Shown: positions 5,415 through 21,567 of the stretch, piece by piece
Numbering within the stretch: position 1 is the first letter of the stretch
Layout: each line of letters opens with the position of its first letter
Origin: Alphaproteobacteria bacterium
Lineage (GTDB): Bacteria; Pseudomonadota; Alphaproteobacteria; Rs-D84
Direction of reading: 5' to 3'
Assembly (NCBI GenBank): GCA_017505705.1
Contig: JAFVOS010000005.1
Span: forward strand, 29,493-93,492
Length of the DNA: 64,000 nucleotides
Translations under genes and position numbers: made by a program
The notes under the pieces: generated by a model
The model's database searches: none
Told to the model about the DNA's origin: nothing
Seen by the model: the letters and a program-made list of their open reading frames with translations, nothing else

Positions 5415-5603
5415 TTAAAAAATCCAATTAACAATCGCCCCCAGCACACTGTCCACCGCAAAGAAAAACAGCGCCGCAATGGCAGAAAACACCAGAATCA
5501 TGACAGTTGCATGCACAACAGTATCACGTGACGGCCAAACAATTTTAAACCATTCACGACGTACAGATTTAATATATTCCAGTATCTTCTTCATAAAACA
5601 CAT
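5415..5603 (-). CDS. secE: preprotein translocase subunit SecE
   Basis: 62 aa small protein with a single C-terminal transmembrane helix. Lies immediately upstream of nusG and downstream of tRNA-Trp, the canonical arrangement. Confidence 0.8.
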   Translation of the reverse strand: MCFMKKILEYIKSVRREWFKIVWPSRDTVVHATVMILVFSAIAALFFFAVDSVLGAIVNWIF

Positions 5604-5632
5604 CCACTTTTTATAAAAATCTTAACTATCAG

Positions 5633-5651
5633 TGGCAGGGGCAGAAGGAAT
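5633..5651 (-). repeat. 19-nt direct duplicate of the tRNA-Trp 3' end (TGGCAGGGGCAGAAGGAAT), att-like remnant
   Basis: Exact 19-mer shared between 5633-5651 and 5809-5827. The copy lies about 155 nt downstream of the tRNA 3' end and is followed by a GAATGttcgCATTC hairpin. Confidence 0.6.
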
Positions 5652-5808
5652 GTTCGCATTCGCTCACCACTCGTACCGATTTCGCATCGTTACACTTGCA
5701 AAATCCTACTCGTATGCGAACCCAACACCATTATTTCCCTCGGGTTCGATTTTCTGCCCACCTTTTTTTGCCAAATTCCAAGACACAAACGTGTTGCGTT
5801 TTGGAATT

Positions 5809-5882
5809 TGGCAGGGGCAGAAGGAATCGAACCCTCATCCGCGGTTTTGGAGACCGATATTCTACCGTTGAACTATGCCCCT
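5809..5882 (-). tRNA. trnW: tRNA-Trp (anticodon CCA)
   Basis: The reverse complement AGGGGCATAGTTCAACGGTAGAATATCGGTCTCCAAAACCGCGGATGAGGGTTCGATTCCTTCTGCCCCTGCCA folds as a cloverleaf. Its anticodon loop CTCCAAA matches E. coli tRNA-Trp. CCA is encoded. Canonical position upstream of secE. Confidence 0.85.
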
Positions 5883-6116
5883 GTGGATATCAACAACCCT
5901 GTCTTTGCACCGCGTGCGCACCCATAGTCTGCGACAGGTTAGCACACAAATACAAAAAATCAAGCGGAAATATTATATTACTTTTAATTTTTTGGCGCAA
6001 GGAGATTTTTAAGCATAAAAACATTTTTCTTTTTTACTTTTTTGATTTTGCAAATTTTTTCTTGCACATGCGTGTGTTTTTTGTCTACAATCCATGTAAT
6101 CAAGGGGGAGATTTTA

Positions 6117-6794
6117 GTGCAAAACCGCATAGAACCGCCAATTTTACTGTCCAGATTGATGACGCTGGTGCTGGCGACGGCCATGGTTGTGCTGGGCGTA
6201 ATGGTTTTAACGCTGTACAAAATGTTCCCACTGAACAGACCACAGATATTCTTTTTGATGACACGCCCCAGCCATACATTGCAGGTGACACTGCACGAAA
6301 TGCCACCAGCAGATAAAAATCTGGATTTATATAAGCGCAGCTTTATACGTGAATACATCAAGGCACGCAATGAAATTTCTGCAAACATTAATGTTATGCG
6401 AAAAAAATGGACAAACACCCCAGGTGCAGCCGTTCGTGCATGGTCAAGCGATGAAGTCTTTAATGATTTTGCACAAACACGCATGTGGACAGCATTAATG
6501 AATGAAGTTCCTGGGTTTGAACTGAAATGCCCTGTCGAATTTGAAACAGGCGCAATTACACCACGTGGCAAAGATATGTATGCTGTAAAATTCCGCCAGT
6601 TTTGTGAAAATAGTGATGGACAGGTGGCAGCAAAAGATTATACAATTGTGTTGAGACTAGAAATAGATGAATCCGCAAAAGTTCAATGGACAGATCGTCT
6701 GAACAACCCATTGGGGATTCGTGTGTCACAGTATACAATAGAGTCTGTAGACGGCGACACAGAAGATAAAACAGATCCACTGAACCGGTTCTGA
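6117..6794 (+). CDS. VirB8/TrbF/DotI-like type IV secretion protein
   Basis: GTG start at 6117 preceded by the strong RBS AAGGGGGAG. Short N-terminus, a single TM helix (LMTLVLATAMVVLGVMVLTLY) and a periplasmic domain ending in the NPLG (NPxG) motif typical of VirB8 homologs. First gene of a VirB8-9-10-like operon. Confidence 0.65.
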   Translation: MQNRIEPPILLSRLMTLVLATAMVVLGVMVLTLYKMFPLNRPQIFFLMTRPSHTLQVTLHEMPPADKNLDLYKRSFIREYIKARNEISANINVMRKKWTNTPGAAVRAWSSDEVFNDFAQTRMWTALMNEVPGFELKCPVEFETGAITPRGKDMYAVKFRQFCENSDGQVAAKDYTIVLRLEIDESAKVQWTDRLNNPLGIRVSQYTIESVDGDTEDKTDPLNRF

Positions 6795-6826
6795 TAAGCA
6801 TGTAAAAAAAACGGAAGGAAGTTGGT

Positions 6827-8350
6827 ATGACGTTGGTAAAGAATTGGAAATTTAACGTTTCTGTATTGTGTATGGCGATTGTTTTGGGCCTTCCATTTGT
6901 TGATGGCGCCATGGCTTATACGAACCCATGGGACAACCCAAGTGCAAATATGGCCAGTGGCAGTACGAAGCCTGGATACGCACAACTGTCTTGGTCCAAG
7001 GGCAGTGTCTTGCCATTGAAATTGCGCAACGGCATGGTGACAATGGTTTCAGTGCCAAACGGCGAACAAATTGCAGATGTTGTTATTGGTGACGACACAT
7101 TGTTTGAGGTAGGAACAAAAGTCGGCGACCAAACTATGTTCATTTCGCCAACACCATCTAATATGGGTGCAGATACGAACATGATTGTCACAGGTAAATC
7201 AGGAAACAAATATGTTTTCTATCTGCGGGCAGAACCATCAAATTCATCAGAGGTCACATATTCACAGGTAGATGTCATTTTAGATAATAATGCAACACTG
7301 CCAAACGCAAGCGCAAGCTCTGCTACAGGCAGCGGTATGAAATCTATATTCAACAAACCAGCAACAACATCAAGTGTTGTTGGCACAGATGGCGAAGATT
7401 ATGGATGGATAAAATCTATGAAGATTGACCCATCAGAGTTTAGATTTGATTTGGATATATTTGTTCCAAACCCAGACGATTATGTTATCGCACCAGAACG
7501 TGTATGGCGTGATCGTATATTTACCTATATTGACTTTGGTGACAAGGTTATTTCCATGACGCAGCGTCCGGTTGTGTCACTGTTGGTTGAAGGTGGCGAA
7601 TCCCCGGTTGGTTTCCGTACAGATGGCGAAGATGGGCGTTTGTTAATCGTAGAAGCAGTGGGCGACATGGTTTTACGCAGTGGGCAACGTATTGTCTGTA
7701 TCAAAAAACGTGAAAAGCCATTCTTGATTGCCGATACAGCATCTGTGATGGCATTGGCAGAGGCAAATGTTGCACAAAGCATGATGAGCAACCAGTCGCT
7801 GAACAACATCGCATACAATATGGACATGGCGGCAATGAATATGAATGCAAACAACTATACCACAACACCAACATTTGTTGGCAATGGGTCAGTTGCCGCA
7901 GCCACAGGTGCAGGGATGTATATGCCAGCGGGTTATTCGGCAGGTACAACAACAGGTGCATCAACCGCAATGACAATGGTACCAACACAGCGTGACACCG
8001 CAGGGGCATATCTACCACAATCAAATATCCCATTAATCAGCAGCAACCAAAGTGGTGTTGCAGTTGAACTGAAAGCGGATCCATCGGTCAAGGCATTGAA
8101 TGATTATTGGACAGGGATGCTAGCAAAATTTAGTGGCAGTGACGGCGCAGGTTTGTTGGCACCGTATAAGGACATGGTATTCTTTGCTGTTGATGAACAG
8201 GGGGTCGGTGAATTGGGTTCAGAATCAACATCAGCACGCCTGTATCGTTTGCGCATTGGGCCGTTGGCTGATATTGATACAGCACAAAAGTTATGTGACC
8301 AATTATTGAAGTTTAGCGGTGCAAGTTGCAGCGTTGTAAGAATCCAGTAA
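6827..8350 (+). CDS. VirB9/TrbG/CagX-like T4SS outer-membrane core protein with a C-terminal SPOR-like extension
   Basis: Signal peptide. N-terminal VirB9-like region (LRNGMVTMVSVPNGEQIADVVIGDD…). A central beta-rich region (…RPVVSLLVEGGESPVGFRTDGEDGRLLIVEAVGDMVLRSGQRIVCI). The C-terminus (…LYRLRIGPLADIDTAQKLCDQL…SCSVVRIQ) resembles a SPOR domain. RBS GGAAGG precedes the ATG. Confidence 0.6.
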   Translation: MTLVKNWKFNVSVLCMAIVLGLPFVDGAMAYTNPWDNPSANMASGSTKPGYAQLSWSKGSVLPLKLRNGMVTMVSVPNGEQIADVVIGDDTLFEVGTKVGDQTMFISPTPSNMGADTNMIVTGKSGNKYVFYLRAEPSNSSEVTYSQVDVILDNNATLPNASASSATGSGMKSIFNKPATTSSVVGTDGEDYGWIKSMKIDPSEFRFDLDIFVPNPDDYVIAPERVWRDRIFTYIDFGDKVISMTQRPVVSLLVEGGESPVGFRTDGEDGRLLIVEAVGDMVLRSGQRIVCIKKREKPFLIADTASVMALAEANVAQSMMSNQSLNNIAYNMDMAAMNMNANNYTTTPTFVGNGSVAAATGAGMYMPAGYSAGTTTGASTAMTMVPTQRDTAGAYLPQSNIPLISSNQSGVAVELKADPSVKALNDYWTGMLAKFSGSDGAGLLAPYKDMVFFAVDEQGVGELGSESTSARLYRLRIGPLADIDTAQKLCDQLLKFSGASCSVVRIQ

Positions 8351-8365
8351 TGTTGTGCAAAATGG

Positions 8366-10747
8366 GTGCGTATACATATGAATAAAATAAAAAAGTCATT
8401 TGCGGATTGGCGCAATAATACCCCAAAACGGATTCAATGGTTGTTGATGGGGGTCGCATTTGTTGTGGTGCTGATACTGTTAACGCTGTTGTTAACAGGT
8501 GATAAGAAAGAAGAAAAGATAGAAGAAGTTGACAGCACACCAATAGAACTGTTGATTTCCCCAGATTCCGTAGATTGGGCAGACGTTATTGTTGGACAGG
8601 CAAAAACCCAGACGCTGAAGGTTTCTGCCACAGGGCCCATTAAAATTGTTGCAGTACGCAGAACCCAGGATATAAATGGATTATCTGTTAATACAGGCTG
8701 CACAAATGCAGGCGAGATTAATCAACAGTTTGCATGTACGATAACGATTGATTATGCACCAACCACCGCAATGAGTGCCAAGGCCGTTCCACTGTTTATT
8801 GATTGGCATGGGGTAAATCAACCCGAAGAAATGAAAAAAACATATAAATATACAATGGTACTGGGGGCAACCAGCCCAAAGGTGGAAACGCCAGAACCTG
8901 TTGTTATCGAAAAGGTTGTTGAAAAAATTATCGAAAAACCAGTTGAAAAAATTGTTGTCAAGGAAGCAGAAGAAGAGTTTCAGGAAGATGAGGAAGAGCC
9001 TGAACTGGATCTGATTGCACCGGCCAAGCCATTTGGTACAGTGACAGAAAGAAAAGCCCCAACCGCATCAGAAGGGTGTTCAGATTTTGCATTCCCAGGA
9101 TATGATAATTCAGGAAGACAAATCGGTTGGATAAAACCAAAGGCCGGGGCGTACTATTTCCATCCTTTTTCTGATAAAAATTGTGAAGACGCCACAGGGG
9201 TTTACAATCCAGACAATGGTATTATTACAGATATAAAAAATCCATCTAAGAAAATCGGCACAGACGCCGATCATATTGGATATGCAACAATAACTAATGG
9301 AATCTTGCCGGAATTGACCAGCATTGGAAAACAATCAATTGAACAGACAACATCAGAAAAACCAGAAAACGTTGGTGGGATGGGCCGTTTGGGCGGCGAG
9401 GGTTTTGCCGCATTTGCCGGATTAACACTTGCACCAGAACCAGATGTAGAATATGAATCATCTGGGGAAGATACCGTTGTTTCCAGCAAGATTCACGACA
9501 GACAATTTTTATTGCGTCAATATAAACCGATTCCTGCAACAATCGTTTCAGATGTTCGTGCAGACGCAGAAGCATTGGCCCAGGGCGTGCCAGTGCGTGC
9601 AACCGTTGATCGCAATGTTTATTCAGACAGTGGTCGTAATGTAATTATTCCAACAGGTACAATGATGTTGGGATATGTGACAGGTAAGTTGCCTGGGCCA
9701 TATACATCGATTGGCCGTATGCAGATTAATTGGTACCAGTTTGTATTACCAAATGGGGTCGAATTTAATTTCAAGGGCGGCAAAAAAGATCCATTTTCAG
9801 CCGATTCCCAGGGGCGTGTTGGTGTTCCAGGATACGGCAGCACCGATTATTTGGAACAGTTTTTTATGCCAATGTTGACCGCAATTGTACCAGCGGCGGT
9901 GAATCTGATTGCGCCAGTGACAGATGCATTTGTTAATCAAATTGACCTGGATAACAATACAGTGGTGCAAAGCGGTACAGTGCGATCATCTGAATTGGCA
10001 AAAAATGAAATCATCACCACATGGAACCAGGTTGCGCAAAAATTACTGGTTGATATGATGGACAATACCGTTCCGCCATTCACAATTGCAGCGGGCACAC
10101 GTATTAATGTTTATTCACCCGTTGATTTAATGGTCACATGTGGGGCACCGGGGTCATCAGATAAAAAATGTGCTGTTGCTGAATATGGTTCTAAAAAGCG
10201 TGCAGATTGGGAACATAATGCAGAAGCGGACTATAATGATGGTTCATGGGTTGGCCAGGTACGCTCGTTCGCAGTCAGTGAATTCTGTACAGAAAATGGT
10301 GATGTTGTTGACAGCTGTAAAAAGGACGGGGAATGCGGCGGTTATGATTATCGAACAATTCTGTTCTATTGCCAGTCAAATCAGTACAAGGCAATAAATA
10401 TGGCAAAACAAGATGCGCTATTCCAAAGCCAACAGCAAAAATTCCAGGATACATACAGTGTACAAAATACAAACACTGGTCTGACAGGAATTCAGGGCGA
10501 CCAGGCATATAATGAACAGGTTCTGGGGTTGACATATGATGACGAAGGATATATCGAAAATCCATTCCAGGAAACACCAGCCCCAGTTGTGGAAGAGTCT
10601 GCTGTTGCACCAGTCTTGACATGCGAAGATGGCAGTCTGCCAGATGCAAATGGTTGCTGTGCGGGCGAAATATATACAGATATGGGCGAACAGGGCTTTA
10701 ATTGCTGTCCAGAAGCGGGTGGCGACTGTTTCCCGCCTATATTGTAA
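8366..10747 (+). CDS. VirB10/TrbI/DotG-like T4SS core protein with an approx 190-aa Cys-rich C-terminal extension
   Basis: N-terminal TM helix. Pro/Glu-rich linker (PEPVVIEKVVEKIIEKPVEKIVVKEAEEE). Clear TrbI/VirB10 C-terminal domain (…IPTGTMMLGYVTGKLPG…IGRMQINWYQFVLPNGVEF…GRVGVPGYGS…IAAGTRINVY…). Then a Cys-rich tail. Start is ambiguous between GTG 8366 and ATG 8378. Confidence 0.8.
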   Translation: MRIHMNKIKKSFADWRNNTPKRIQWLLMGVAFVVVLILLTLLLTGDKKEEKIEEVDSTPIELLISPDSVDWADVIVGQAKTQTLKVSATGPIKIVAVRRTQDINGLSVNTGCTNAGEINQQFACTITIDYAPTTAMSAKAVPLFIDWHGVNQPEEMKKTYKYTMVLGATSPKVETPEPVVIEKVVEKIIEKPVEKIVVKEAEEEFQEDEEEPELDLIAPAKPFGTVTERKAPTASEGCSDFAFPGYDNSGRQIGWIKPKAGAYYFHPFSDKNCEDATGVYNPDNGIITDIKNPSKKIGTDADHIGYATITNGILPELTSIGKQSIEQTTSEKPENVGGMGRLGGEGFAAFAGLTLAPEPDVEYESSGEDTVVSSKIHDRQFLLRQYKPIPATIVSDVRADAEALAQGVPVRATVDRNVYSDSGRNVIIPTGTMMLGYVTGKLPGPYTSIGRMQINWYQFVLPNGVEFNFKGGKKDPFSADSQGRVGVPGYGSTDYLEQFFMPMLTAIVPAAVNLIAPVTDAFVNQIDLDNNTVVQSGTVRSSELAKNEIITTWNQVAQKLLVDMMDNTVPPFTIAAGTRINVYSPVDLMVTCGAPGSSDKKCAVAEYGSKKRADWEHNAEADYNDGSWVGQVRSFAVSEFCTENGDVVDSCKKDGECGGYDYRTILFYCQSNQYKAINMAKQDALFQSQQQKFQDTYSVQNTNTGLTGIQGDQAYNEQVLGLTYDDEGYIENPFQETPAPVVEESAVAPVLTCEDGSLPDANGCCAGEIYTDMGEQGFNCCPEAGGDCFPPIL

Positions 10748-10768
10748 AAGCAATAATACTAACTATAT

Positions 10769-10797
10769 AAACCCACCGATTGGTGGGTTTTATTTTT
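10769..10797 (+). terminator. rho-independent terminator after the T4SS operon
   Basis: Hairpin AACCCACCGATTGGTGGGTT followed by a T-run. Confidence 0.8.
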
Positions 10798-11049
10798 AAT
10801 AAGGGGTTATATAAGTATGCTTGTCTTTATATGTGTATATTTGCGTCCAGTGTTTGGGCGCTTGTTTTTTTATTCGGGCAAACACAGTGATGATTATTAG
10901 TGTTTTTATCGATTCGTATCGAGCACAACAAAACATTTACACGAATCAGGTTTTCGATTCGAATTTCAATCATAGGTTGTAATATTTACCAATGTCGATT
11001 TTTTAGGATATAAATCATAACATACAAAAAAAACAAAGGAGATGTAGGC

Positions 11050-11391
11050 ATGACACAAACACAAACATTATATTATACAGAAAAATTCCAAAGCGCAGAA
11101 CAACTGTGGTTCTGGTTTTTGTATTCGCAATCTGTCAGAAACGGATTTGTACAAAATGGGGCAAGAGCCGCCAAACGTGCGTGCGAACTGGTTGATGTTG
11201 AAACACTGATTACTAAATTATATCTGTCGGGAAAACTGACCGATGAACAGTTATCTGTGATGAAACAATTTGGCGACAAAAGACGTGCCCCACACCAGTA
11301 TATATGGCGTGAAAATCGTGCAGCTGATCAATGGAGACGCGCAATGCATACACTGGAACATGCCGCTAAACAGCGTGGATGGATTGAATAA
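11050..11391 (+). CDS. hypothetical protein (113 aa)
   Basis: ORF preceded by the RBS AAAGGAG. No family recognised from the sequence. Confidence 0.5.
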   Translation: MTQTQTLYYTEKFQSAEQLWFWFLYSQSVRNGFVQNGARAAKRACELVDVETLITKLYLSGKLTDEQLSVMKQFGDKRRAPHQYIWRENRAADQWRRAMHTLEHAAKQRGWIE

Positions 11392-11411
11392 AATTACAAG
11401 GATTTTAAGTC

Positions 11412-11753
11412 ATGATAATAATCGCATTTTCAAACAAGACATCAAAAAAATTTGCACAATTGGTATGCAGAAAATTTAAACATGTGGCACCAATCATTCC
11501 AGACGGACGCTTTTTGATTATGTATCAATTTGTACGCCCGGGATATGTCGAAAAAATAAAACTGGGCACACGTGATTTAAAAATATTAAAAGCACATGGT
11601 TGGCAATTTATTTATATCAATGGAATTGATGTACCATATGATTTTAATATGCGAACAGCATATTCATGCGTAGATCTGGCCAAACGAACAATAAATATGC
11701 ATAATATATTTGTTCAAACACCACTGGCATTATATAAAAGATTAAAACAATAA
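11412..11753 (+). CDS. hypothetical protein (113 aa)
   Basis: ORF following the previous one and ending at a bidirectional terminator. No family recognised. Confidence 0.45.
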   Translation: MIIIAFSNKTSKKFAQLVCRKFKHVAPIIPDGRFLIMYQFVRPGYVEKIKLGTRDLKILKAHGWQFIYINGIDVPYDFNMRTAYSCVDLAKRTINMHNIFVQTPLALYKRLKQ

Positions 11754-11782
11754 AAAGCCGCCCATATGGGCGGTCTTTTATT
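11752..11782. terminator. bidirectional rho-independent terminator
   Basis: Hairpin GCCGCCCATATGGGCGGT flanked by A-run and T-run. Lies between convergent genes. Confidence 0.75.
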
Positions 11783-14700
11783 TATGCAAACGTGGACGCC
11801 AGTTGCGCAACTTTTCCATCAGGAAGAATAGCGCTGGGGTCAACGTGAATGTAAAGATAAGACTGGCCAACATACCACCAATCATAACCGCACCCATGGC
11901 TACCTTCATACCGTCGCCAGACCATAATTGCGGAACCATCCCGGCCATAACAGCAATAGATGTCATAAGAACCATATTCTTTTTATCCATCAATTCTGTC
12001 CACAGTGCGTTATATGCTTTTTCACCAGATGCAACACGATTAATCGTTGGTTCCAATACCAAAATGTTATTATTTACAACCAATCCAACCAACATAACAA
12101 ACGCCAACATTGCACCAATATTCATTGTCGCACCAGACAAGAACATCAATACGAACACACCTGCAAAACTGGTGATAATAGATGTTGCAATTGTAAATGG
12201 ATGCGCCAAAGAATTCAAAATAGCAGCCAGCAACATAAACGTTAATATCGTAGCCAGCAAGAATGCTGTTCCAATTTCTGATGTGGTGTCACCCTGGATT
12301 TCAGACATACCGCCGAATTCAGCACGATAACCGTCTTCCCAGTCGATTTTATTTAGGCTTGATTGAATCTTGGCCTGGACAGGACCCATTGTCGATTTAC
12401 CAATATTAATATCAACTTCTGTTAAACGGTTTTTAGATTTACGACGTATATCTGGGGTGGCAGCAGTGCTTTCAACACGACCCAATTCAGATAATGGGAC
12501 CATACCCTTTTGTGAATTTACGTATACATTTTCAAACAGCGCAGCTGTTTTAAACGCATCGTCAAATTCCAAAATAATTGGGTATTCTTCGCCACCTTCT
12601 TTGTATTTGTATGTGTCATTTCCAAACAAGGCGGTACGCAATGTTGTTCCAGCATATGAATTTTGAACGCCCCAGAAATTCATTTTTTCTTCGTCAGGGA
12701 CAAATCTGAATTCGTTTGCAGGTATTTGCTGTGCACGAACCGCCGATTGCACTTCGGGTATCTGGTTTACCATATCAATAATCTGGGCGGCATATGCTTC
12801 ACGTTTGGTGTCGTCTGGTCCATACACATTCAGAACCAAGTCAGATGACACACCCGCAGATGAAGATTGCCCTGCACGAATTTGAACCTCTGCATCGGGG
12901 ATATCAGATATTTCTGGCAACATTGCCTGGGCCAGTTCTTTGTCTGATAGGCTGCGTTCTGATGCATCGACTAATTCCACCTTAACCGAGATATTCTGCA
13001 AACCACGTTCGCCGATTTTTACAGACAGTGATTTAACTTCATCAAACTTTTCCAAACGCTGCTCAATCTGGGCGGCAATGGATTCTGATTTCTCGTATGT
13101 GGCACCCATGGGGGCACGTGCAGTGATAGTTATTTCGTCTGCATCAGTCGATGGAGAAAATTCATTACCAACAAATTTCATCAACATCGAAGATCCAAAC
13201 AAAATCGCAATCGCCAATAACAATACTTTGCCAGGATGCTTGTGCTGGAAATCATACCATTTTCGTATACCAGAATTTTCAGATGTGTTTGCTGTTTTCT
13301 TGGGCTGAGATTTCTTGGCCTGTTTATTATCGCCCGTCAGACGCAAGAATTTCGCAATCATCATTGGTGTTAATGTAAACGAGAACAACAACGATAATAC
13401 AGTTAAGTATACAACAGTCATACCAAATTGGTTCATAAACAAACCTGCAATACCACTCATAAACGCCAAGGGCAAGAACACCACAACGTTTGTTCCAACA
13501 CCAGCCAACACAGATACAGCAACTTTTTTGGTACCATCAATTGCGGCATCTTCTGGGGATTTTCCGTTGTGCATTTCTTGCAGTGCAGATTCAATCAAAA
13601 TAATCGCATTTGACACCAGTGTACCCAACGCTGTTGAATACGCCAACAATGTCATCGCATTAACGGTAAAACCGGAACCTTCCATGAAGAAAAAGCCAGC
13701 CAACAATGATGCAGGGATAACAACACCTGCAATGACCGTAGAACGCCAGTTGCGGGTAAATGCCAACAACACCAAAACTGTCAAAATAACACCCAAGACA
13801 ATCGAATTTATGGTGTCATCGGTATCTTCGGAAACGGATGTCGAAGAATCAAATACAATCTGCATTTCGGCATTTGGGAATCTGGATTTTAGGTCTGCTT
13901 GGTATTCAGGCATACGTTTGCGCAATTGTTCTGAAATCTTGATTGCATTACCGTCTGATGCCTTGACCACAGATGCAATAACAACATTTTGACCGTTATA
14001 GCGTGCACCTGTTTCTATTTCACGTGCCGCATCGGTGACAGTCGCAATGTCTGACAGTTTGAAGTTATGACCTTCGACGGTGGTTAAACGCAGATTTTCA
14101 ATTTCTGCAACAGATGCAAATTCACCAACAAATCGGACATTCGATGAATTTGTGCCACTTTCAATCTTTCCACCGGGAACATTCAAATTACGATTCCCCA
14201 AGGCCGCAACAACATCCATAACCGTCACACCACGTGCAGCCATTAAATCTGGATTCATTGCAATACGCACAGCACGTTCGGTGCCACCAAATACAGATAC
14301 AGATGCAACACCAGAAAGACCAGTGATTTTATTTGATAAAATATTATCTACATATTCTTCCAGGTCACGTGAATCTGCACCCTGTAAAACAATATCAACA
14401 ACCGCTTCTTGCAAAGGATTTAATTTTTCAACAACAGGCTGTTCCATATCATCTGGGAATTCTGATAGCAAAGCGTCCAGTTTTGTCTTGATTTCTGAAG
14501 CCTTGTCATTAACGTTTACCCCCAGATGAAATTCCGCCAAGACCATACCGCTGTTTTCATATCCGTATGATGTTAATGATTTTAATTCTGCAACCTCTGA
14601 TATTGCGTCTTCGGCACGCTTTAAAATCTGGGATTCCATTTCAGCAGGTGCCGCACCAGGATAAATAAAAGTAGATGTCACAATTGGGAAATCAATCGCT

Positions 14701-14807
14701 GGTGTGCGTTCAATGTTCATCTTGGGGAATGATACCAACCCCAGTACCACCCAAAACAAAACAAACATTAATGTTGTGACAGGTCTGCGAACAAAAAATT
14801 TTAACAT
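11778..14807 (-). CDS. RND (AcrB/HAE1-family) multidrug efflux permease
   Basis: 1009 aa, 12-TM RND architecture with AcrB-like sequence throughout. Final gene of the marR-oep-mfp-rnd operon. Confidence 0.9.
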   Translation of the reverse strand: MLKFFVRRPVTTLMFVLFWVVLGLVSFPKMNIERTPAIDFPIVTSTFIYPGAAPAEMESQILKRAEDAISEVAELKSLTSYGYENSGMVLAEFHLGVNVNDKASEIKTKLDALLSEFPDDMEQPVVEKLNPLQEAVVDIVLQGADSRDLEEYVDNILSNKITGLSGVASVSVFGGTERAVRIAMNPDLMAARGVTVMDVVAALGNRNLNVPGGKIESGTNSSNVRFVGEFASVAEIENLRLTTVEGHNFKLSDIATVTDAAREIETGARYNGQNVVIASVVKASDGNAIKISEQLRKRMPEYQADLKSRFPNAEMQIVFDSSTSVSEDTDDTINSIVLGVILTVLVLLAFTRNWRSTVIAGVVIPASLLAGFFFMEGSGFTVNAMTLLAYSTALGTLVSNAIILIESALQEMHNGKSPEDAAIDGTKKVAVSVLAGVGTNVVVFLPLAFMSGIAGLFMNQFGMTVVYLTVLSLLFSFTLTPMMIAKFLRLTGDNKQAKKSQPKKTANTSENSGIRKWYDFQHKHPGKVLLLAIAILFGSSMLMKFVGNEFSPSTDADEITITARAPMGATYEKSESIAAQIEQRLEKFDEVKSLSVKIGERGLQNISVKVELVDASERSLSDKELAQAMLPEISDIPDAEVQIRAGQSSSAGVSSDLVLNVYGPDDTKREAYAAQIIDMVNQIPEVQSAVRAQQIPANEFRFVPDEEKMNFWGVQNSYAGTTLRTALFGNDTYKYKEGGEEYPIILEFDDAFKTAALFENVYVNSQKGMVPLSELGRVESTAATPDIRRKSKNRLTEVDINIGKSTMGPVQAKIQSSLNKIDWEDGYRAEFGGMSEIQGDTTSEIGTAFLLATILTFMLLAAILNSLAHPFTIATSIITSFAGVFVLMFLSGATMNIGAMLAFVMLVGLVVNNNILVLEPTINRVASGEKAYNALWTELMDKKNMVLMTSIAVMAGMVPQLWSGDGMKVAMGAVMIGGMLASLIFTFTLTPALFFLMEKLRNWRPRLHK

Positions 14808-14823
14808 ATTACACCCCCGAAAA

Positions 14824-15426
14824 TTATTTTCTTACAACTTTAACTTTTTCACCGGCTTTGACATTGGACAAGATAACTTTGTCGCCATCATTTAGACCAT
14901 CAGTGATGTATGCCATTGTGGCATCTTGATCAGAAACAGTGACAGTGCGTATATCAGCAACACCATTGTCAACAACCATGACAGTACCGTTCTCAATCGC
15001 TGAGACAGGAATAAAGAAACCATGACCAGAAACCTCTGCAAATTGCAGGCCATCTGAAACGCCAGATGTACGTACAACATGCATACCAGTGTCATAGTCT
15101 ATTTTTCTGGATACAGATGTAATCTTACCTTCGCCTATTTTTTGGCCCGCATGTAATTTGCCAACACGTGCACCAGATACCAATGCACGATTATTTTTTA
15201 CAGAAATTGGTTCACGCAATATACCGTCTGTGCGTGTGATTGTTATTACTTCGACTGGGGCCCCCTGGTCGGCAGCCACACGTGCGGCATTGAATACATG
15301 ACGTGAATTTTCAGACGCAACCGCCGCAAAGCGAAATACAACCCACCCCGCCAAAACTGCAATCAACAGGATTGTAAAAAACTGTTTCATTTTTTTTGAT
15401 TTTAAATTTTCTGCTATTTTTTCCAT
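14824..15426 (-). CDS. efflux periplasmic adaptor (membrane fusion protein), short form
   Basis: 200 aa with an N-terminal TM anchor and beta-barrel/lipoyl-like regions of the HlyD/AcrA family. Located between the OMP and the RND pump. Unusually short, apparently lacking the coiled-coil hairpin. Confidence 0.65.
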   Translation of the reverse strand: MEKIAENLKSKKMKQFFTILLIAVLAGWVVFRFAAVASENSRHVFNAARVAADQGAPVEVITITRTDGILREPISVKNNRALVSGARVGKLHAGQKIGEGKITSVSRKIDYDTGMHVVRTSGVSDGLQFAEVSGHGFFIPVSAIENGTVMVVDNGVADIRTVTVSDQDATMAYITDGLNDGDKVILSNVKAGEKVKVVRK

Positions 15427-15428
15427 TT

Positions 15429-16754
15429 TTATTCACCTAATTTTTTTACAGATTGTTCAGACATTAAAATATTATATTTCATATTCAACAATGCCATATC
15501 CAATTGATACAGCCCAGCTGCAACATCTGCCAATTCAACAGCAGATGTTTGACCTGCGCCAAAACGATCCTGGGAAAACTGGTACGCTTTGGCCGCTAAA
15601 TCACGTGCTTGTTTTAACTTAGCCAGATTGCCACGCAAATGATTGTATTGTTTTAATGCGTTATCATACTGTTCAGAAGTTAATTTTTTTGCTTTTTCCA
15701 AATCTTGACGAGCGGATTCGGCGTTCATTGCTTCGATTGTAGCGTTGGCACGATTTAAACCACCACTGAAGATTGGAACCTGTAATGCCAAACCAACATT
15801 TACAGATTGTGACCCAGAACGATCAAACATAGAGTCAAATTCATTGCCAATGGCGTTAAAACTGTAGCTGCCAGTGGCGGCCAATGTCGGCAACGAATCA
15901 GCACGTTTAGATCGGGCCAAACGTTCATACATTTCGACCTGTTCAGACAAAATATCCCACTGGGGCGTATTTTCCAGTTTTTGTGACGCAGTTAACTCGC
16001 CGAATGTTGAAGGGAATGAATCTGTCAAAACCAATGGTTCTTCAAGGTCAATGCCTGCCATAATTTTTAACATGCGATGCGCAGTATCACGATTAAATTT
16101 CGCATCGGACAAATTAATTTCTTTGGACGCAATATCAGATTCAATTTTAACCAAATTGCTGCGATTGGCACGACCAGCGGCGGTCAAGCGTTTGCGTGCA
16201 GCACGTGCATTATTCAAATCAGATTCTGACAATTTTACAATTTCATCTGTCATTTTTGCCGTCCAATATAAATTTGCAGCGGCATATTCCACTTCGCGGC
16301 GGGTAAGTTCATATGATGCATCCGCCATCTTTATCGCAGATTTTACAGATTTTACAGCATTGCCAATTTTTCCAAATGTATAAATCGGCTGGGTAATATT
16401 AACACTGGCTGTCAACATATTATCTGGCATTTCAAAAGCAAAACCATCTTTGAATCTTTCGTCTATTTCGCCCAATAAATCACCAGAAATTTCAATCATG
16501 CGTGGTTTTGATGGATTTTCAATATTTACCATATTTGTATATGCGGCTGTACCGTCTATTTTAAACCAGCGATTAGCGTTAACTGCGTCCAGGGACGCTT
16601 CTGCTTTCTGAACATTTGCAGATGCTTTTTTCAGATCATGAGACTGTTCTGTTATTTTTGATACCGCATCAGACAATGATAAATCAATTGCATATGTTGG
16701 CGCAGTCGACAAACAAATTAACGCCATTAAAGATACCATTCGTATTTTATGCAT
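15429..16754 (-). CDS. TolC-family outer membrane efflux protein
   Basis: 441 aa with a signal peptide and two-repeat TolC/OEP organisation. Sits in the efflux operon. Confidence 0.8.
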   Translation of the reverse strand: MHKIRMVSLMALICLSTAPTYAIDLSLSDAVSKITEQSHDLKKASANVQKAEASLDAVNANRWFKIDGTAAYTNMVNIENPSKPRMIEISGDLLGEIDERFKDGFAFEMPDNMLTASVNITQPIYTFGKIGNAVKSVKSAIKMADASYELTRREVEYAAANLYWTAKMTDEIVKLSESDLNNARAARKRLTAAGRANRSNLVKIESDIASKEINLSDAKFNRDTAHRMLKIMAGIDLEEPLVLTDSFPSTFGELTASQKLENTPQWDILSEQVEMYERLARSKRADSLPTLAATGSYSFNAIGNEFDSMFDRSGSQSVNVGLALQVPIFSGGLNRANATIEAMNAESARQDLEKAKKLTSEQYDNALKQYNHLRGNLAKLKQARDLAAKAYQFSQDRFGAGQTSAVELADVAAGLYQLDMALLNMKYNILMSEQSVKKLGE

Positions 16755-18796: not shown

Positions 18797-18870
18797 TGGG
18801 GTGTCGTCTAATGGTAGGACAAGAGATTTTGGTTCTCTTTATCATGGTTCGAATCCGTGCGCCCCAACCA
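18797..18870 (+). tRNA. trnQ: tRNA-Gln (anticodon TTG)
   Basis: TGGGGTGTCGTCTAATGGTAGGACAAGAGATTTTGGTTCTCTTTATCATGGTTCGAATCCGTGCGCCCCAACCA. Anticodon stem AGAGA/TCTCT with loop TTTTGGT. T-arm CATGG-TTCGAAT-CCGTG. CCA encoded. Followed by a terminator. Confidence 0.85.
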
Positions 18871-18877
18871 ATATTCA

Positions 18878-18900
18878 AACGCACCCTTGTGGTGCGTTTT
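18878..18900 (+). terminator. rho-independent terminator after tRNA-Gln
   Basis: CGCACC-cttgt-GGTGCG hairpin followed by TTTT. Confidence 0.75.
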
Positions 18901-19286
18901 AATATTGGCTTTGTTACGCCCGTTTGATTTGAAACATCGTCCGCCTTTGGCGTGACAGGTTCGACTATGAGTAAGCGAAAACAAGCCTTGCGTAGTTTGA
19001 GCGCTAACGAATGCGGCGCAGTGTCGGCTCAGCTGACCGAGCCAATCCGTGCGCAATTTTTTCAGTTCGAAAGTTAAATTTCCATTTTTTATCTCTTCGA
19101 ATACACTTTCGAACCGTTTATATCATGTAAACAAACATTCGAACCAACAACAATCTTATAAAACTAATGAGAATCTGCTCTAACTGGTCTTTTTATTCAA
19201 AGTGGTTGGGGTGTGCGGGCGAAATAAAATAATATTTACAATTTTGTTTTATTATTTTACACTAATTTCGGTGACAGGAGCAGGAT

Positions 19287-19973
19287 ATGGATGCTATCAA
19301 AAATATAAAAAAAGCATTTTTAAATTTGAAAAATAAAAATCGTTTTTTTGTGTCAGAGGCGGACTTTCAACATTCTTTTGCAATGGAGTTAGAAAAAATT
19401 TTTAATGGTACCGCAACCATTTTACTCGAGTTTCCAATAGAGCAAAATGGTCGTATAATTTATACTGATATTATGCTGGTTTATAAACAATATCTATACC
19501 CAATTGAACTGAAATATAAGACCAAAATTATTCCGTCAGAACAATTATACGGATTTACTAGTTTGCCAATAAAAAAGATATTAAAAAACCACAATGCCGT
19601 AGATATAAACGGCTATAATTTTTGGAAAGATATAAATCGCATAGAACAACTAGTAGAAAACAATCAAGTTGTTTCTGGGGTATGCATTATGATAACTAAC
19701 GATAAGTTTTATTGGACTGGGAATTGGAAAAATAATTCAAAGGGTTATCCTTTTAGAACTGTGCAAGGGAAATACCTTTATGGCAATTTAAAATGGCAAC
19801 ATAACGATTTAAACCATATTCCGAAATGGATTAAACAACATCCTGGTTTTGAAATAAAAAATGATTATGAATTCCTGTGGTGTAACTTTTGCGACACCGG
19901 TGATAAAAACGGTTTGTTCAAATCGTTGTTTATAGAAATCCCACAAAAAACGGATAGTAAACATGTCAAATGA
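19287..19973 (+). CDS. PD-(D/E)xK nuclease-like protein (islet gene 1 of 3)
   Basis: 228 aa with RBS AGGAGCAGG. Motif arrangement E (…SEADFQHSFAMELEKI…), then D (RIIYTDIMLV), then 12 residues to ExK (PIELKYK). This is the canonical restriction-endonuclease-fold catalytic pattern. Confidence 0.55.
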   Translation: MDAIKNIKKAFLNLKNKNRFFVSEADFQHSFAMELEKIFNGTATILLEFPIEQNGRIIYTDIMLVYKQYLYPIELKYKTKIIPSEQLYGFTSLPIKKILKNHNAVDINGYNFWKDINRIEQLVENNQVVSGVCIMITNDKFYWTGNWKNNSKGYPFRTVQGKYLYGNLKWQHNDLNHIPKWIKQHPGFEIKNDYEFLWCNFCDTGDKNGLFKSLFIEIPQKTDSKHVK

Positions 19974-20496: not shown

Positions 20497-20498
20497 AA

Positions 20499-21137: not shown

Positions 21138-21322
21138 CCCGAATCTCGCTTGCCGACCCCAACCAGAAATTAAATCGCCCTTGTGGCGGTTTTATTTTTG
21201 GTCAGAGCCACTGTTCGTAATCTGCAACGTATGTTGCCGGTTCCACAATGAGTAGATTTGATAAGTGAAACGCTATCAAATCGTCAGGAATGCCCCGCAG
21301 GCATTTATGCCGAGGGAATTGA

Positions 21323-21338
21323 GTGCGCCCCAACCAAT
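21323..21338 (+). repeat. attR-like direct repeat of the tRNA-Gln 3' end (GTGCGCCCCAACCAAT)
   Basis: Exact 16-mer match to 18857-18872. Confidence 0.6.
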
Positions 21339-21517
21339 GAATTTTTGTTAGAAATCCGGCGCTTTTGTCGGATTTTTTAATGTTTTTTCCTTTACAACAA
21401 CTGATTTATTGAAAAATCTGGAGCCGAAAAGACGTCAAACAAAATTATTGAAATAATTTACGATTTGTGATATAATAACAAGTATGTCAGCGGACGTATA
21501 TGTCGGCTGTTTTTATT

Positions 21518-21546
21518 TGCTCTCGCTTTTTGCGAGAGCTTTTTTT
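21518..21546 (+). terminator. rho-independent terminator-like hairpin immediately upstream of the tail-fibre-like gene
   Basis: GCTCTCGC-ttttt-GCGAGAGC followed by TTTTTTT. It lies inside the ORF-track version of the downstream gene, which is why that start was moved. Confidence 0.6.
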
Positions 21547-21567
21547 GTTATAACAAAAGGAGTTTTA

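What the first reader, a model, noticed from the sequence alone, without database searches (positions are those of the whole stretch)
6117..10747. VirB8-VirB9-VirB10-like T4SS core operon with unusual appended domains (SPOR-like on VirB9, Cys-rich tail on VirB10)
The three genes give the conserved inner/outer-membrane core complex order. Gene 1 has a TM plus NPLG motif. Gene 2 has VirB9-like N- and C-domains. Gene 3 has a clear TrbI/VirB10 domain. The VirB9-like protein is about twice the usual size and ends in a segment resembling a peptidoglycan-binding SPOR domain (…LYRLRIGPLADIDTAQKLCDQL…SCSVVRIQ). The VirB10-like protein carries an extra approx 190-aa C-terminal extension with about 16 cysteines after the canonical domain. 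In VirB10, the C-terminus forms the outer-membrane cap, so an extra Cys-rich domain would be surface-exposed. No virB11/virD4/virB4 follows; the operon ends at a terminator. Scattered T4SS loci of this kind are typical of Rickettsiales-like genomes.
Basis: partly seen in the sequence, partly recalled or inferred. Interest (0 to 1): 0.6.

Follow-up and report, generated by a model that had tools for sequence, protein, structure and literature searches.

The report
Decorated VirB8-9-10 secretion core operon
This is the membrane-spanning core (VirB8, VirB9, VirB10) of a very divergent type IV secretion machine that every member of a tiny-genome gut bacterial lineage (Candidatus Enterousia) keeps beside its ribosomal genes, carrying extra cell-wall-binding and disulfide-rich domains not described for such machines in the libraries and papers searched here.

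Summary
Three co-directional genes (6117-6794, 6827-8350, 8366-10747) pass Pfam thresholds for VirB8, VirB9/CagX and VirB10/TrbI, behind an invariant promoter and before a terminator.

The SPOR call on VirB9 is real: it is detected in 18 of 18 family members. The VirB10 tail is real but has 12 cysteines, not 16. Its cysteine number is even in 118 of 119 homologs, and one variable cysteine never occurs without one of two alternative partner cysteines. That pattern indicates disulfides.

The last ~43 residues form a 6-Cys module that also ends at least three other classes of envelope protein.

The operon sits beside secE-nusG-rplKAJL in 80 of 80 species loci fetched, of 248 matching species genomes. 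It is vertically inherited, not mobile.

No VirB4, VirB11 or VirD4 lies in the 64-kb window or in any flank. Their presence elsewhere in the genome could not be tested.

Verdict: a new variant of a known kind, of moderate interest.

The parts
6061..6091 (+). Operon promoter: CTTGCA (-35, 6061-6066; TTGCAC at 6062-6067), then 18 nt, then TACAAT (-10, 6086-6091)
   Evidence: Both hexamers are invariant in an 11-species alignment of the spacer. The consensus scan found TGCACA-17-TACAAT at 6063-6091. Promoter function is inferred.
6102..6110 (+). Shine-Dalgarno AAGGGGGAG, 6 nt before GTG 6117
   Evidence: Read from the sequence. Nearly invariant in the spacer alignment.
6117..6794 (+). VirB8-like protein, 225 aa: short cytoplasmic N-terminus, one TM helix, periplasmic VirB8 domain with NNPLG motif
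   Evidence: Pfam PF04335 scores 54.4 bits against a cut-off of 23.2. TM-like segment at aa 7-25. Present in 77 of 80 loci, median identity 52%.
6827..8350 (+). VirB9-like protein, 507 aa: signal peptide, VirB9 N- and C-domains, conserved helix, Asn/Met/Ala/Gly-rich linker, SPOR domain
   Evidence: Pfam PF03524 scores 79.9 bits. Residues 186-330 are invariant or nearly so in 18 species. Median identity across species is 73%, against 78% for SecE. The PDB profile search gives its best hit to TrwF/VirB9 of R388.
8048..8347 (+). SPOR-like domain of the VirB9-like protein (about aa 408-507; Pfam-matched part aa 469-505, with YRLRIGP and invariant C490 and C501)
   Evidence: PF05036 scores 21.8 bits against a cut-off of 21. 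It is matched in 18 of 18 members, best E 3.8e-6. hhalign against an E. coli FtsN/DamX/DedD/RlpA SPOR profile gives P = 5.5e-4 over beta3-alpha2-beta4 only. The N-terminal half of the fold is inferred from the pattern of residues.
8366..10747 (+). VirB10-like protein, 793 aa from GTG 8366 (probably 789 aa from ATG 8378)
   Evidence: Pfam PF03743 scores 59.6 bits. Foldseek matches Xanthomonas VirB10 (6gyb_C, 5.3e-10), TrwE, CagY, TraF, ComB10, DotG and TraB. There are 887 full-length homologs.
8426..8497 (+). VirB10 N-terminal TM helix (aa 21-44), preceded by a conserved cytoplasmic peptide (P20 and W25 invariant in 119 sequences; R16 and Q24 invariant in the 16-sequence alignment)
   Evidence: Modelled as helix 21-44. 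Invariant residues.
8546..8875 (+). PapD/ASH-like Ig beta-sandwich (aa 61-170) with the invariant pair C112/C124
   Evidence: pLDDT about 90. Foldseek matches the CEP192 PapD-like domain (6fvi, 5.2e-6), HYDIN and MSP. Pfam ASH (20.3 bits, cut-off 27) and NCBIfam choice-of-anchor D (23.6 bits, cut-off 45) are both below cut-off.
9077..9310 (+). Conserved small beta module (aa 238-315, CSDFAFPGY...GTDADHIGY) with the invariant pair C238/C273; no known family
   Evidence: pLDDT 83-89. Mean identity 76% over 119 sequences. No Pfam or NCBIfam match.
9497..10135 (+). VirB10/TrbI C-terminal barrel (aa 378-590) with the antenna hairpin (helices 494-528 and 542-568)
   Evidence: Mean identity 84%.
10136..10744 (+). 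Disulfide-rich C-terminal tail (aa 591-793), 12 Cys in this genome
   Evidence: The tail has 10 Cys in 54 sequences and 12 in 64 sequences, of 119. C657 occurs only together with C651 (47 sequences) or C640 (18 sequences). The full tail is found only in VirB10-length proteins or fragments of them.
10616..10744 (+). Terminal 6-Cys module (aa 751-793): C-x10-CC-x14-CC-x6-C-FPPIL
   Evidence: Mean identity 87%, the most conserved part of the protein. pLDDT 68-81 with a beta hairpin. It also occurs at the C-terminus of small secreted, tiny TM-anchored and about 680-850-aa bitopic proteins.
10769..10790 (+). Terminator-like hairpin plus T-run after the B10 stop; a second lies at 10843-10861
11050..11753 (+). 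Two conserved 113-aa ORFs (11050-11391 and 11412-11753) that follow the operon in 76 and 74 of 80 loci. No TM helix, no known family. Whether they belong to the system is unknown.
   Evidence: median identity 69% and 48%. No hits in Pfam, NCBIfam, PHROGs or the PDB. Absent after B10 in the divergent relatives L083 and L085.

Best explanation
The three genes encode the envelope-spanning core module of a chromosomal, vertically inherited and very divergent VirB-type (MPF-T-like) type IV secretion machine of Candidatus Enterousia. This lineage belongs to order Rs-D84, whose members are gut Alphaproteobacteria with genomes under 1 Mb.

Proposed working (shown where stated, otherwise inferred):
- VirB8 is a bitopic inner-membrane assembly factor.
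- VirB10 is anchored in the inner membrane by one helix. This is modelled.
- VirB10 crosses the periplasm on a stalk that carries a PapD-like Ig domain and a small beta module, separated by acidic and proline-rich disordered linkers. The folds are modelled with confidence.
- VirB10 ends in the canonical barrel, whose two-helix antenna makes the outer-membrane pore together with the VirB9 C-domain. The fold match is shown; assembly is inferred from the pKM101, R388 and Xanthomonas structures.
- VirB9 has no lipobox, and no VirB7 lipoprotein gene is in the operon. Instead VirB9 carries a SPOR domain on a roughly 60-100-residue low-complexity tether. I infer that this grips denuded peptidoglycan strands, fixing the core complex to the wall and possibly targeting it to septal or polar sites.
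- The VirB10 tail is an oxidised, disulfide-bonded extracytoplasmic domain. It most likely hangs on the periplasmic side of the outer-membrane layer.
- The tail ends in a 6-Cys module that the lineage also places at the C-terminus of several other envelope proteins. It is therefore most likely a shared docking or binding module.
- The ATPases and the inner-membrane channel must be encoded elsewhere. This was not tested.
- The substrate is unknown. Given the proposed partner-dependent lifestyle of the lineage, protein delivery to a partner cell or DNA uptake from outside are the likeliest uses.
For: Family assignments are above curated cut-offs for all three proteins.

The VirB10 fold with its antenna matches seven solved T4SS families.

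SPOR is detected in 18 of 18 members and is supported by hhalign against bona fide SPOR domains.

The Ig domain is modelled at pLDDT about 90 with PapD/ASH fold matches.

Cysteine parity and partner switching across 119 homologs indicate disulfides.

In all three other protein classes the module follows a signal peptide or a TM helix.

The order rplL-rplJ-rplA-rplK-nusG-secE, then divergently B8-B9-B10, holds in 80 of 80 species loci and in two more divergent relatives. VirB9 median identity is 73%, against 78% for SecE. The promoter is invariant. Together these show vertical inheritance under strong purifying selection in genomes under 1 Mb (PMC12306168).

The short cytoplasmic N-terminus of VirB10 has invariant residues (P20 and W25 in 119 sequences; R16 and Q24 in 16). 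That suggests a cytoplasmic partner exists.
Against: No VirB4, VirB11, VirD4, VirB2, VirB3, VirB5, VirB6 or VirB7 homolog was found in the 64-kb window, in plus or minus 10 kb of the operon in 80 species, or in the other loci fetched. The one genome survey of the lineage does not mention a T4SS.

Scores against the NCBIfam equivalog models for VirB9 and VirB10 are far below cut-off, so these are not orthologs of any characterised system.

The SPOR score in the window protein is only 0.8 bit above the cut-off, and only the C-terminal half of the domain aligns.

The tail's structure and location are not established. The tail-only model was unusable at pLDDT 49, and in the full-length model aa 593-634 are below 50.
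Confidence: 0.68

Rival explanations
1. Orphan core. The lineage has lost, or never had, the T4SS ATPases. It keeps VirB8-9-10 as a stand-alone trans-envelope scaffold that ties the inner membrane, the wall (through SPOR) and the outer membrane together, or as a passive conduit, together with the other proteins that carry the 6-Cys module.
For: No ATPase gene lies anywhere near the operon in over 80 genomes. VirB9 is conserved almost as well as SecE, as a structural housekeeping protein would be. A wall-binding domain has been added. The module is shared with non-T4SS envelope proteins encoded beside ftsQ/ftsA and lolCD-like genes. The lineage survey reports no secretion system.
Against: Scattered T4SS genes are well known in other reduced alphaproteobacterial genomes (Rickettsiales rvh; my own knowledge). 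The antenna helices and the cytoplasmic N-terminus of VirB10 are invariant, which fits a gated channel coupled to cytoplasmic ATPases. VirB8 is an inner-membrane assembly factor for the complete machine. Less than about 10% of any one genome was visible to me.
Confidence: 0.14
2. ComB-like DNA-uptake machine. The core belongs to a T4SS that imports environmental DNA into the periplasm. ComEC then carries it across the inner membrane, supplying nucleotides to a bacterium that cannot make them.
For: ComEC is encoded in the window at 41953-43863 (Pfam Competence, 1.8e-50). The NCBIfam ComB10 model hits at 2.1e-13, and ComB10 is among the PDB sequence and fold matches. No relaxase or coupling protein lies nearby. 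The survey reports that complete pathways for amino-acid, nucleotide and fatty-acid biosynthesis are missing, in a passage about the reduced-genome lineages that does not name Rs-D84 in the excerpts I read; for Rs-D84 specifically it reports no standard transporters and a possible partner dependence. The survey mentions type IV pili only for another lineage.
Against: The ComB10 score (50 bits) is below the generic VirB10 score (63 bits) and far below its cut-off of 300. ComEC is about 31 kb away and is common in non-competent bacteria. ComB4 and the other ComB proteins were not found. A prepilin peptidase gene occurs in a related genome.
Confidence: 0.2
3. One reading: the Cys-rich VirB10 tail is displayed on the cell surface above the outer-membrane cap, as an adhesin or contact domain.
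For: The tail follows the outer-membrane-associated domain. Other T4SS display VirB10-family regions on the surface, CagY being one (my own knowledge). Disulfide-rich small modules are typical of extracellular proteins. The module is the best-conserved part of the protein.
Against: The antenna is a helical hairpin, so the chain returns to the periplasm before the tail begins. The same module ends bitopic inner-membrane proteins and tiny TM-anchored proteins whose C-termini are periplasmic by topology. No outer-membrane-crossing segment is predicted in aa 591-793.
Confidence: 0.12
4. Remnant of a conjugative element or integrated plasmid.
For: NCBI names the proteins 'P-type conjugative transfer protein'. 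The nearest sequence relatives in annotated collections are plasmid VirB10 proteins.
Against: The chromosomal position beside secE-nusG is identical in 80 of 80 species. GC content matches the flanks. No relaxase, integrase, repeats or other transfer genes are present. Identity to plasmid VirB10 is at most 30%. Purifying selection is strong.
Confidence: 0.02

Closest known systems
VirB/VirD4-type (MPF-T) T4SS outer-membrane core complexes with solved structures: pKM101 TraN/TraO/TraF, R388 TrwH/TrwF/TrwE, Xanthomonas citri VirB7/VirB9/VirB10
   Same: The gene order B8-B9-B10 is the same. VirB8 has a TM helix plus an NPxG domain. VirB9 has N- and C-domains. VirB10 has an N-terminal TM helix, an acidic and proline-rich stalk, and a C-terminal barrel with a two-helix antenna. 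Foldseek gives 5e-10 to 3e-7, and the PDB profile search hits TrwF.
   Different: At most 30% identity. No VirB7 lipoprotein gene. VirB9 is twice as long and ends in SPOR. VirB10 is 1.7 times as long, with an Ig domain, a beta module and a 203-aa disulfide-rich tail. The genes are not contiguous with virB1-B6, virB11 or virD4. The locus is chromosomal and lineage-wide, not plasmid-borne.
Helicobacter pylori Cag (CagX/CagY) and ComB (ComB8-ComB9-ComB10) systems
   Same: These are the best PDB sequence matches for VirB10: CagY at 1.1e-4 and ComB10 at 2.9e-3. CagY is also a VirB10 enlarged by lineage-specific regions. comB8-comB9-comB10 is likewise encoded apart from comB2-comB4 (my own knowledge).
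   Different: CagY's additions are N-terminal repeat regions, not a C-terminal Cys tail. Neither system has SPOR on CagX or ComB9. NCBIfam ComB10 scores 50 bits against a cut-off of 300.
Rickettsiales rvh T4SS
   Same: It is a chromosomal, vertically inherited VirB-type system in reduced alphaproteobacterial genomes, with its genes scattered in several loci (my own knowledge).
   Different: In rvh, virB8-virB9-virB10 is followed by virB11 and virD4. Here a terminator follows virB10. The scattering is not demonstrated here. The tandem array of five membrane-protein paralogs at 50-56.6 kb gave no VirB6 signal.
SPOR-domain proteins (FtsN, DamX, DedD, RlpA)
   Same: A C-terminal domain of roughly 75-100 residues with the YR(V/L)R(V/I)GP signature. 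A cysteine pair is invariant in the VirB9 SPOR domain; the E. coli FtsN SPOR domain is also disulfide-bonded (my own knowledge). The domain sits on a long low-complexity periplasmic linker.
   Different: It is fused to a secretion-system ring protein, not to a division protein. Only the beta3-alpha2-beta4 half is detectable by sequence.

Membership tests
VirB8 (Pfam PF04335) | Score at or above the Pfam gathering cut-off over the whole periplasmic domain | tested here: met
   54.4 bits against 23.2, covering profile positions 9-210 of 213.
VirB8 (Pfam PF04335) | Bitopic topology (N-terminal TM helix) and the conserved NPxG motif | tested here: met
   TM-like segment at aa 7-25. NNPLG is read from the translation.
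VirB9/TrbG/CagX (Pfam PF03524) | Score at or above the gathering cut-off, covering both the N- and C-domains | tested here: met
   79.9 bits against 34.2, profile positions 5-197 of 198. Matched in 18 of 18 members.
VirB9 equivalog (NCBIfam TIGR02781) | Score at or above the equivalog cut-off | tested here: not met
   55.4 bits against 217.7. The protein is in the VirB9 superfamily but is not an ortholog of characterised VirB9.
VirB10/TrbI (Pfam PF03743) | Score at or above the gathering cut-off | tested here: met
   59.6 bits against 35. Matched in 16 of 16 members.
VirB10/TrbI (Pfam PF03743) | C-terminal beta barrel with a two-helix antenna projection, plus an N-terminal TM anchor | tested here: met
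   The AlphaFold2 model has helix 21-44, strands across 381-590, and helices 494-528 and 542-568. Foldseek gives 5.3e-10 to Xanthomonas VirB10 and matches TrwE, CagY, TraF, ComB10, DotG and TraB.
VirB10 equivalog domain (NCBIfam NF038091) | Score at or above the cut-off | tested here: not met
   63.1 bits against 220.
Complete VirB-type T4SS | A VirB4 ATPase encoded in the genome | not testable with these tools
   Absent from the window and from plus or minus 10 kb in 80 species.
Complete VirB-type T4SS | VirB11, VirD4, VirB6, VirB2, VirB3 and VirB5 encoded with the core genes | tested here: not met
   None is found in the window or the flanks by Pfam, by the Walker-A screen, or by phmmer with a reference plasmid set. 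The phmmer set also failed to recover B8 and B9, so that negative is weak for the non-ATPase components.
Complete VirB-type T4SS | A VirB7 lipoprotein partner of VirB9 | tested here: not met
   No small ORF with a lipobox lies in 5600-6200 or 10700-11100. The Cys in the VirB9 signal peptide is not conserved.
SPOR domain (Pfam PF05036) | Score at or above the gathering cut-off | tested here: met
   21.8 bits against 21 in the window protein. Matched in 18 of 18 members, best E 3.8e-6.
SPOR domain (Pfam PF05036) | The full beta-alpha-beta-beta-alpha-beta fold | tested here: inconclusive
   Only profile positions 40-76 of 76 align. hhalign against the E. coli SPOR profile aligns 37 columns, P = 5.5e-4, probability 30%. 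No PDB sequence hit.
SPOR domain (Pfam PF05036) | Binding to denuded peptidoglycan glycan strands | not testable with these tools
   This needs a biochemical assay.
ASH/PapD-like Ig domain | Sequence score at or above the cut-off | tested here: not met
   Pfam ASH scores 20.3 against 27. NCBIfam choice-of-anchor D scores 23.6 against 45. ASH is matched in 3 of 16 members.
ASH/PapD-like Ig domain | Beta-sandwich fold matching solved PapD-like domains | tested here: met
   pLDDT about 90 over aa 61-170. Foldseek matches 6fvi at 5.2e-6 and 2ys4 at 1.1e-4.
ComB DNA-uptake T4SS | ComB10 equivalog score at or above the cut-off | tested here: not met
   50.1 bits against 300.
Rickettsiales rvh-type scattered T4SS | Other T4SS loci elsewhere in the genome, including tandem VirB6 paralogs | tested here: inconclusive
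   A conserved tandem array of five membrane-protein paralogs exists at 50014-56561. It shows no TrbL/VirB6 signal in Pfam, NCBIfam, the PDB profile search or hhalign.

The most novel reading that the evidence does not exclude
The VirB8-9-10 triad works without any T4SS ATPase. Under this reading, a reduced-genome lineage has turned the core complex into a wall-anchored trans-envelope structure. That structure is wired, through a previously undescribed 6-Cys C-terminal module, to a set of other envelope proteins. It may form the contact or exchange apparatus of a partner-dependent gut bacterium.
Probability: 0.12. Interest if true: 0.8.

Novelty: new variant of a known kind. Interest (0 to 1): 0.5.

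Why it matters
Candidatus Enterousia and its order Rs-D84 are widespread, uncultured gut Alphaproteobacteria with genomes under 1 Mb. They lack respiration, and a partner-dependent lifestyle has been proposed for them without any known contact machinery (PMC12306168).

A T4SS core that is kept in all 80 species loci fetched (248 species genomes encode a relative), and that is conserved almost as well as SecE, is a strong candidate for that machinery.

For T4SS biology it offers three things that I found described neither in the libraries searched nor in the papers held:
- a VirB9 fused to a SPOR wall-binding domain, in an operon that has no VirB7
- a VirB10 whose periplasmic stalk carries folded domains in addition to its disordered linkers
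- a disulfide-rich C-terminal tail whose terminal 6-Cys module is a free-standing domain shared by at least three other envelope protein classes

The module is a candidate new domain family with roughly 250 clusters at 50% identity.

Tried and rejected
1. The tail-only AlphaFold2 model from 12 sequences had pLDDT 49 and was unusable for fold search.
2. PDB profile searches with the SPOR-like domain and with the tail returned only chance hits, such as antibody chains and a GH5 enzyme.
3. PHROGs, Pfam, NCBIfam and PDB searches of the two conserved downstream 113-aa ORFs found nothing.
4. The first Walker-A screen used G-x4-GK[ST] and missed A-x4-GK[ST] proteins such as UvrD. I repeated it with the wider pattern.
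5. phmmer with one reference plasmid T4SS set found only VirB10. It did not even recover B8 and B9, so its negatives are weak.
6. Looking for T4SS genes genome-wide failed.
7. I considered whether the module proteins are exported by an adjacent MacB-type pump. I rejected this as over-reading, because the permease and ATPase look like housekeeping LolC/E-LolD next to ftsQ/ftsA.
8. I considered whether the five tandem membrane paralogs at 50-56.6 kb are VirB6-like. No test supported it.
9. I considered a known RNA in the conserved spacer upstream of virB8. Rfam finds none.
10. The AFDB fold library was unavailable.

Full report
**What is there**

Three co-directional ORFs occupy 6117-10747.

A strong Shine-Dalgarno sequence (AAGGGGGAG, 6102-6110) lies 6 nt upstream. 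The longer TTG-initiated ORF from 6042 merely reads through the conserved promoter region.

Pfam places the three proteins above the curated cut-offs:

| Protein | Pfam family | Score (bits) | Cut-off (bits) |
|---|---|---|---|
| gene 1 | VirB8 | 54.4 | 23.2 |
| gene 2 | CagX/VirB9 | 79.9 | 34.2 |
| gene 3 | TrbI/VirB10 | 59.6 | 35 |

The NCBIfam equivalog models for VirB9 and VirB10 are hit only far below their cut-offs. Plasmid VirB10 proteins are at most 30% identical. PDB profile searches give only weak hits: CagY 1.1e-4, ComB10 2.9e-3 and TrwF 2.6e-3. So these are true members of the three superfamilies but orthologs of no characterised system.

A terminator-like hairpin at 10769-10790, and a second at 10843-10861, follow the VirB10 stop.

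**Whose genome, and how the locus behaves**

A scan of one genome per species found relatives in 248 species genomes. The 80 best are titled Candidatus Enterousia, Alphaproteobacteria bacterium or uncultured Rickettsiales bacterium. They come from gut and rumen metagenomes and include a closed 958,618-bp chromosome.

The lineage belongs to order Rs-D84. It is described as having genomes mostly under 1 Mb, no TCA cycle and no respiratory chain, with a possibly partner-dependent lifestyle (PMC12306168).

In all 80 loci the order is rplL-rplJ-rplA-rplK-nusG-secE, then divergently B8-B9-B10, usually followed by two 113-aa ORFs. Two more divergent relatives, with VirB10 of 765 and 806 aa, keep the same position but have different downstream genes.

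Median identity to the window proteins across species:

| Protein | Median identity |
|---|---|
| NusG | 88% |
| SecE | 78% |
| VirB9 | 73% |
| VirB10 | 56% |
| VirB8 | 52% |

Residues 186-330 of VirB9 are invariant or nearly so in 18 species.

The spacer upstream of virB8 contains an invariant CTTGCA ... TACAAT promoter and the invariant ribosome-binding site.

This is a vertically inherited core gene set under strong purifying selection. It is not a mobile element.

**The appended domains**

*VirB9 (507 aa, against 245 aa in a reference plasmid system).*
- After the VirB9 C-domain come an invariant helix, an Asn/Met/Ala/Gly/Tyr-rich linker, and a roughly 100-residue C-terminal domain.
- Pfam SPOR matches this domain in the window protein at 21.8 bits, just over the cut-off of 21. 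It matches in all 18 homologs tested, best E 3.8e-6.
- A profile of the E. coli FtsN, DamX, DedD and RlpA SPOR domains aligns to the beta3-alpha2-beta4 half, P = 5.5e-4. The N-terminal half is not detectable by sequence.
- I accept the SPOR assignment with that caveat.

*VirB10 (793 aa, against 459 aa).* A full-length AlphaFold2 model built from 119 homologs shows the following:

| Region (aa) | Feature | pLDDT (10-residue block means) |
|---|---|---|
| 21-44 | TM helix | 83-88 |
| 61-170 | beta sandwich | about 90 |
| 178-232 | disordered acidic and proline-rich linker | 31-39 |
| 240-307 | small beta module | 83-89 |
| 308-380 | second disordered linker | 30-41 |
| 381-590 | TrbI barrel with two long antenna helices (494-528, 542-568) | 41-83, lowest in the 525-539 antenna loop |
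| about 640-735 | partly helical tail | about 46-78 |
| 750-793 | terminal module with a beta hairpin | 68-81 |

Foldseek against the PDB matches the barrel to Xanthomonas VirB10 (5.3e-10), TrwE, CagY, TraF, ComB10, DotG and TraB. It matches the N-terminal sandwich to PapD/ASH-like domains (CEP192 5.2e-6, HYDIN, MSP).

**The cysteines**

The protein has 16 Cys, of which 12 are in the tail.

Across 119 homologs the tail has 10 Cys (54 sequences), 12 Cys (64 sequences) or 13 Cys (1 sequence). The variable C657 is present in 65 sequences. In every one it is accompanied by C651 (47 sequences) or C640 (18 sequences), and never occurs without one of them.

Even parity and partner switching are what a real disulfide predicts. 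The Ig domain (C112/C124), the beta module (C238/C273) and the SPOR domain (C490/C501) each hold one invariant pair. All of these domains are therefore extracytoplasmic and oxidised.

**An unexpected result: the terminal module is a free-standing domain**

I searched a profile of the tail exhaustively against 1.84 billion cluster representatives. It gave 246 hits.

The whole tail occurs only in VirB10-length proteins or fragments of them. The last ~43 residues (C-x10-CC-x14-CC-x6-C-FPPI[LK]) also end three other protein classes:
- small Sec-exported proteins with one to three copies
- TM-anchored proteins of 70-130 aa
- bitopic membrane proteins of about 680-850 aa with a conserved cytoplasmic N-domain

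In all of these the module follows a signal peptide or a TM helix, and in nearly all it lies 4-10 residues from the C-terminus.

No Pfam or NCBIfam model covers the module. It is the best-conserved part of VirB10, at 87% mean identity.

Three small module proteins are encoded after lolC/E-lolD-like genes next to ftsQ-ftsA. One bitopic protein is encoded next to gcrA. I read the first as conserved housekeeping neighbourhood, not as evidence for an export route.

**Where is the rest of the machine?**

I found none of it in the sequence I could see.
- The window's other genes are ribosomal and transcription genes, an RND efflux operon, a low-GC island, a polysaccharide cluster, CTP synthase, ComEC, UvrD and central metabolism.
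- The only real P-loop protein of at least 250 aa in the window is UvrD.
- No candidate T4SS ATPase lies within 10 kb of the operon in any of the 80 species.
- I could not search a whole genome.

The invariant residues in the short cytoplasmic N-terminus of VirB10 (P20 and W25 in 119 sequences; R16 and Q24 in 16), the invariant antenna, and the presence of VirB8 all argue that cytoplasmic and inner-membrane partners exist. This is an inference.

**How it most likely works**

Shown:
- family and fold of the three proteins
- the domain map
- the oxidised state, from cysteine statistics
- vertical inheritance

Inferred:
- VirB10 spans from the inner membrane to the outer-membrane pore.
- VirB9 forms the ring around it.
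- With no VirB7 lipoprotein gene present and no conserved lipobox on VirB9, the SPOR domain on its flexible tether fixes the ring to denuded glycan strands of the wall. This possibly occurs at septal or polar sites, as for other SPOR proteins.
- The VirB10 tail lies on the periplasmic side, because the antenna is a hairpin that returns the chain to the periplasm.
- The terminal module docks to a partner shared with the other module proteins.

The substrate cannot be named. Effector delivery to a partner cell and ComB-like DNA uptake are the two sensible candidates. For the second, ComEC is present at 41953-43863.

**Comparison and novelty**

The closest known systems are the VirB-type core complexes of pKM101, R388 and Xanthomonas, the H. 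pylori Cag and ComB systems, and, by lifestyle and chromosomal scattering, the Rickettsiales rvh system.

None of these, to my knowledge, has a SPOR-bearing VirB9 or a Cys-rich C-terminal VirB10 tail. None of the full-text searches returned a paper describing either.

The extensions are universal in this lineage, so they are not peculiar to this genome. NCBI already labels the proteins VirB9 family and VirB10 family, so the basic identity is not new.

I rate this a new variant of a known kind, interest about 0.5. It would rise sharply if closed genomes prove to lack VirB4.

Noticed in passing
window 10616-10744; also P0258, P0266, P0275, P0279, P0288 and loci L081, L082, L087, L090: The last ~43 residues of VirB10 are a free-standing 6-Cys module (C-x10-CC-x14-CC-x6-C-FPPI[LK]). 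It also ends small secreted proteins (1-3 copies), tiny TM-anchored proteins and about 680-850-aa bitopic membrane proteins. About 246 clusters at 50% identity carry it, and no Pfam or NCBIfam model covers it. Several of the small proteins are encoded after lolC/E-lolD-like genes next to ftsQ-ftsA.
   Followed up: partly
window 50014-56561: Five mutually similar polytopic membrane proteins: one gene divergent from four in tandem, flanked by uvrD. At least three share a CxxC motif just after the first TM helix. The block is conserved in other species, about 40 kb from the virB8-10 operon on the same contig. The layout recalls the tandem VirB6 arrays of Rickettsiales, but Pfam, NCBIfam, a PDB profile search and hhalign gave no VirB6 signal.
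   Followed up: partly
window about 5922-5985 (spacer between tRNA-Trp and virB8): A second invariant block of about 60 nt (ATAGTCTGCGACAGG.TAGCACAC..ATACAAAAAATCAAGCGGAAATATTATA) is conserved at 80-90% identity, even in species whose VirB8 is only about 50% identical. It has no Rfam match. It could be the promoter or leader of the tRNA-Trp-secE-nusG unit, or an unknown small RNA.
   Followed up: partly
window 11050-11391 and 11412-11753: Two 113-aa ORFs with no TM helix and no known family follow the operon in 76 and 74 of 80 species. The first has a median identity of 69%, which is better conserved than VirB8 or VirB10. They are bounded by a bidirectional terminator at 11757-11774 and are absent in the two most divergent relatives.
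   Followed up: partly
window 7382-7816 (VirB9 aa 186-330): About 145 consecutive residues of VirB9 (the C-domain plus the following helix) are invariant or nearly so in 18 species whose overall VirB9 identity to the window protein is 73-88%. That is an unusually hard constraint for a secretion-system ring protein.
   Followed up: yes
window 8366-8378: The VirB10 ORF opens at GTG 8366, but the homologs begin at the Met that corresponds to residue 5 (ATG 8378). That Met is probably the true start.
   Followed up: partly
window 18797-23034: A low-GC block (0.32-0.36) lies directly after tRNA-Gln. It holds four ORFs with no significant family match; one carries a weak, sub-threshold SseB hit. One 516-aa protein has an N-terminus resembling phage tail fibres. 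This is probably an integrated island, and it is absent from the related loci.
   Followed up: no
window 23399-35888: A polysaccharide biosynthesis and modification cluster with low GC (0.30-0.36) on the minus strand. It includes GDP-mannose dehydratase, epimerases, GT4 glycosyltransferases, a Stealth protein, and MBOAT and AlgX-like acyltransferases.
   Followed up: no
window 36276-40255: Two adjacent proteins with no significant family match and hydrophobic, signal-peptide-like N-termini (read by eye), of 311 and 1021 aa. The larger has 23 cysteines.
   Followed up: no
window 41953-43863: A ComEC competence channel gene (Pfam Competence, 1.8e-50). It is relevant to the DNA-uptake reading of the T4SS core.
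   Followed up: no
window 11778-16754: An RND efflux operon (pump, adaptor and outer-membrane factor) follows the locus here but in only one of the 80 related loci (L039). Synteny therefore breaks immediately after the two 113-aa ORFs.
   Followed up: no
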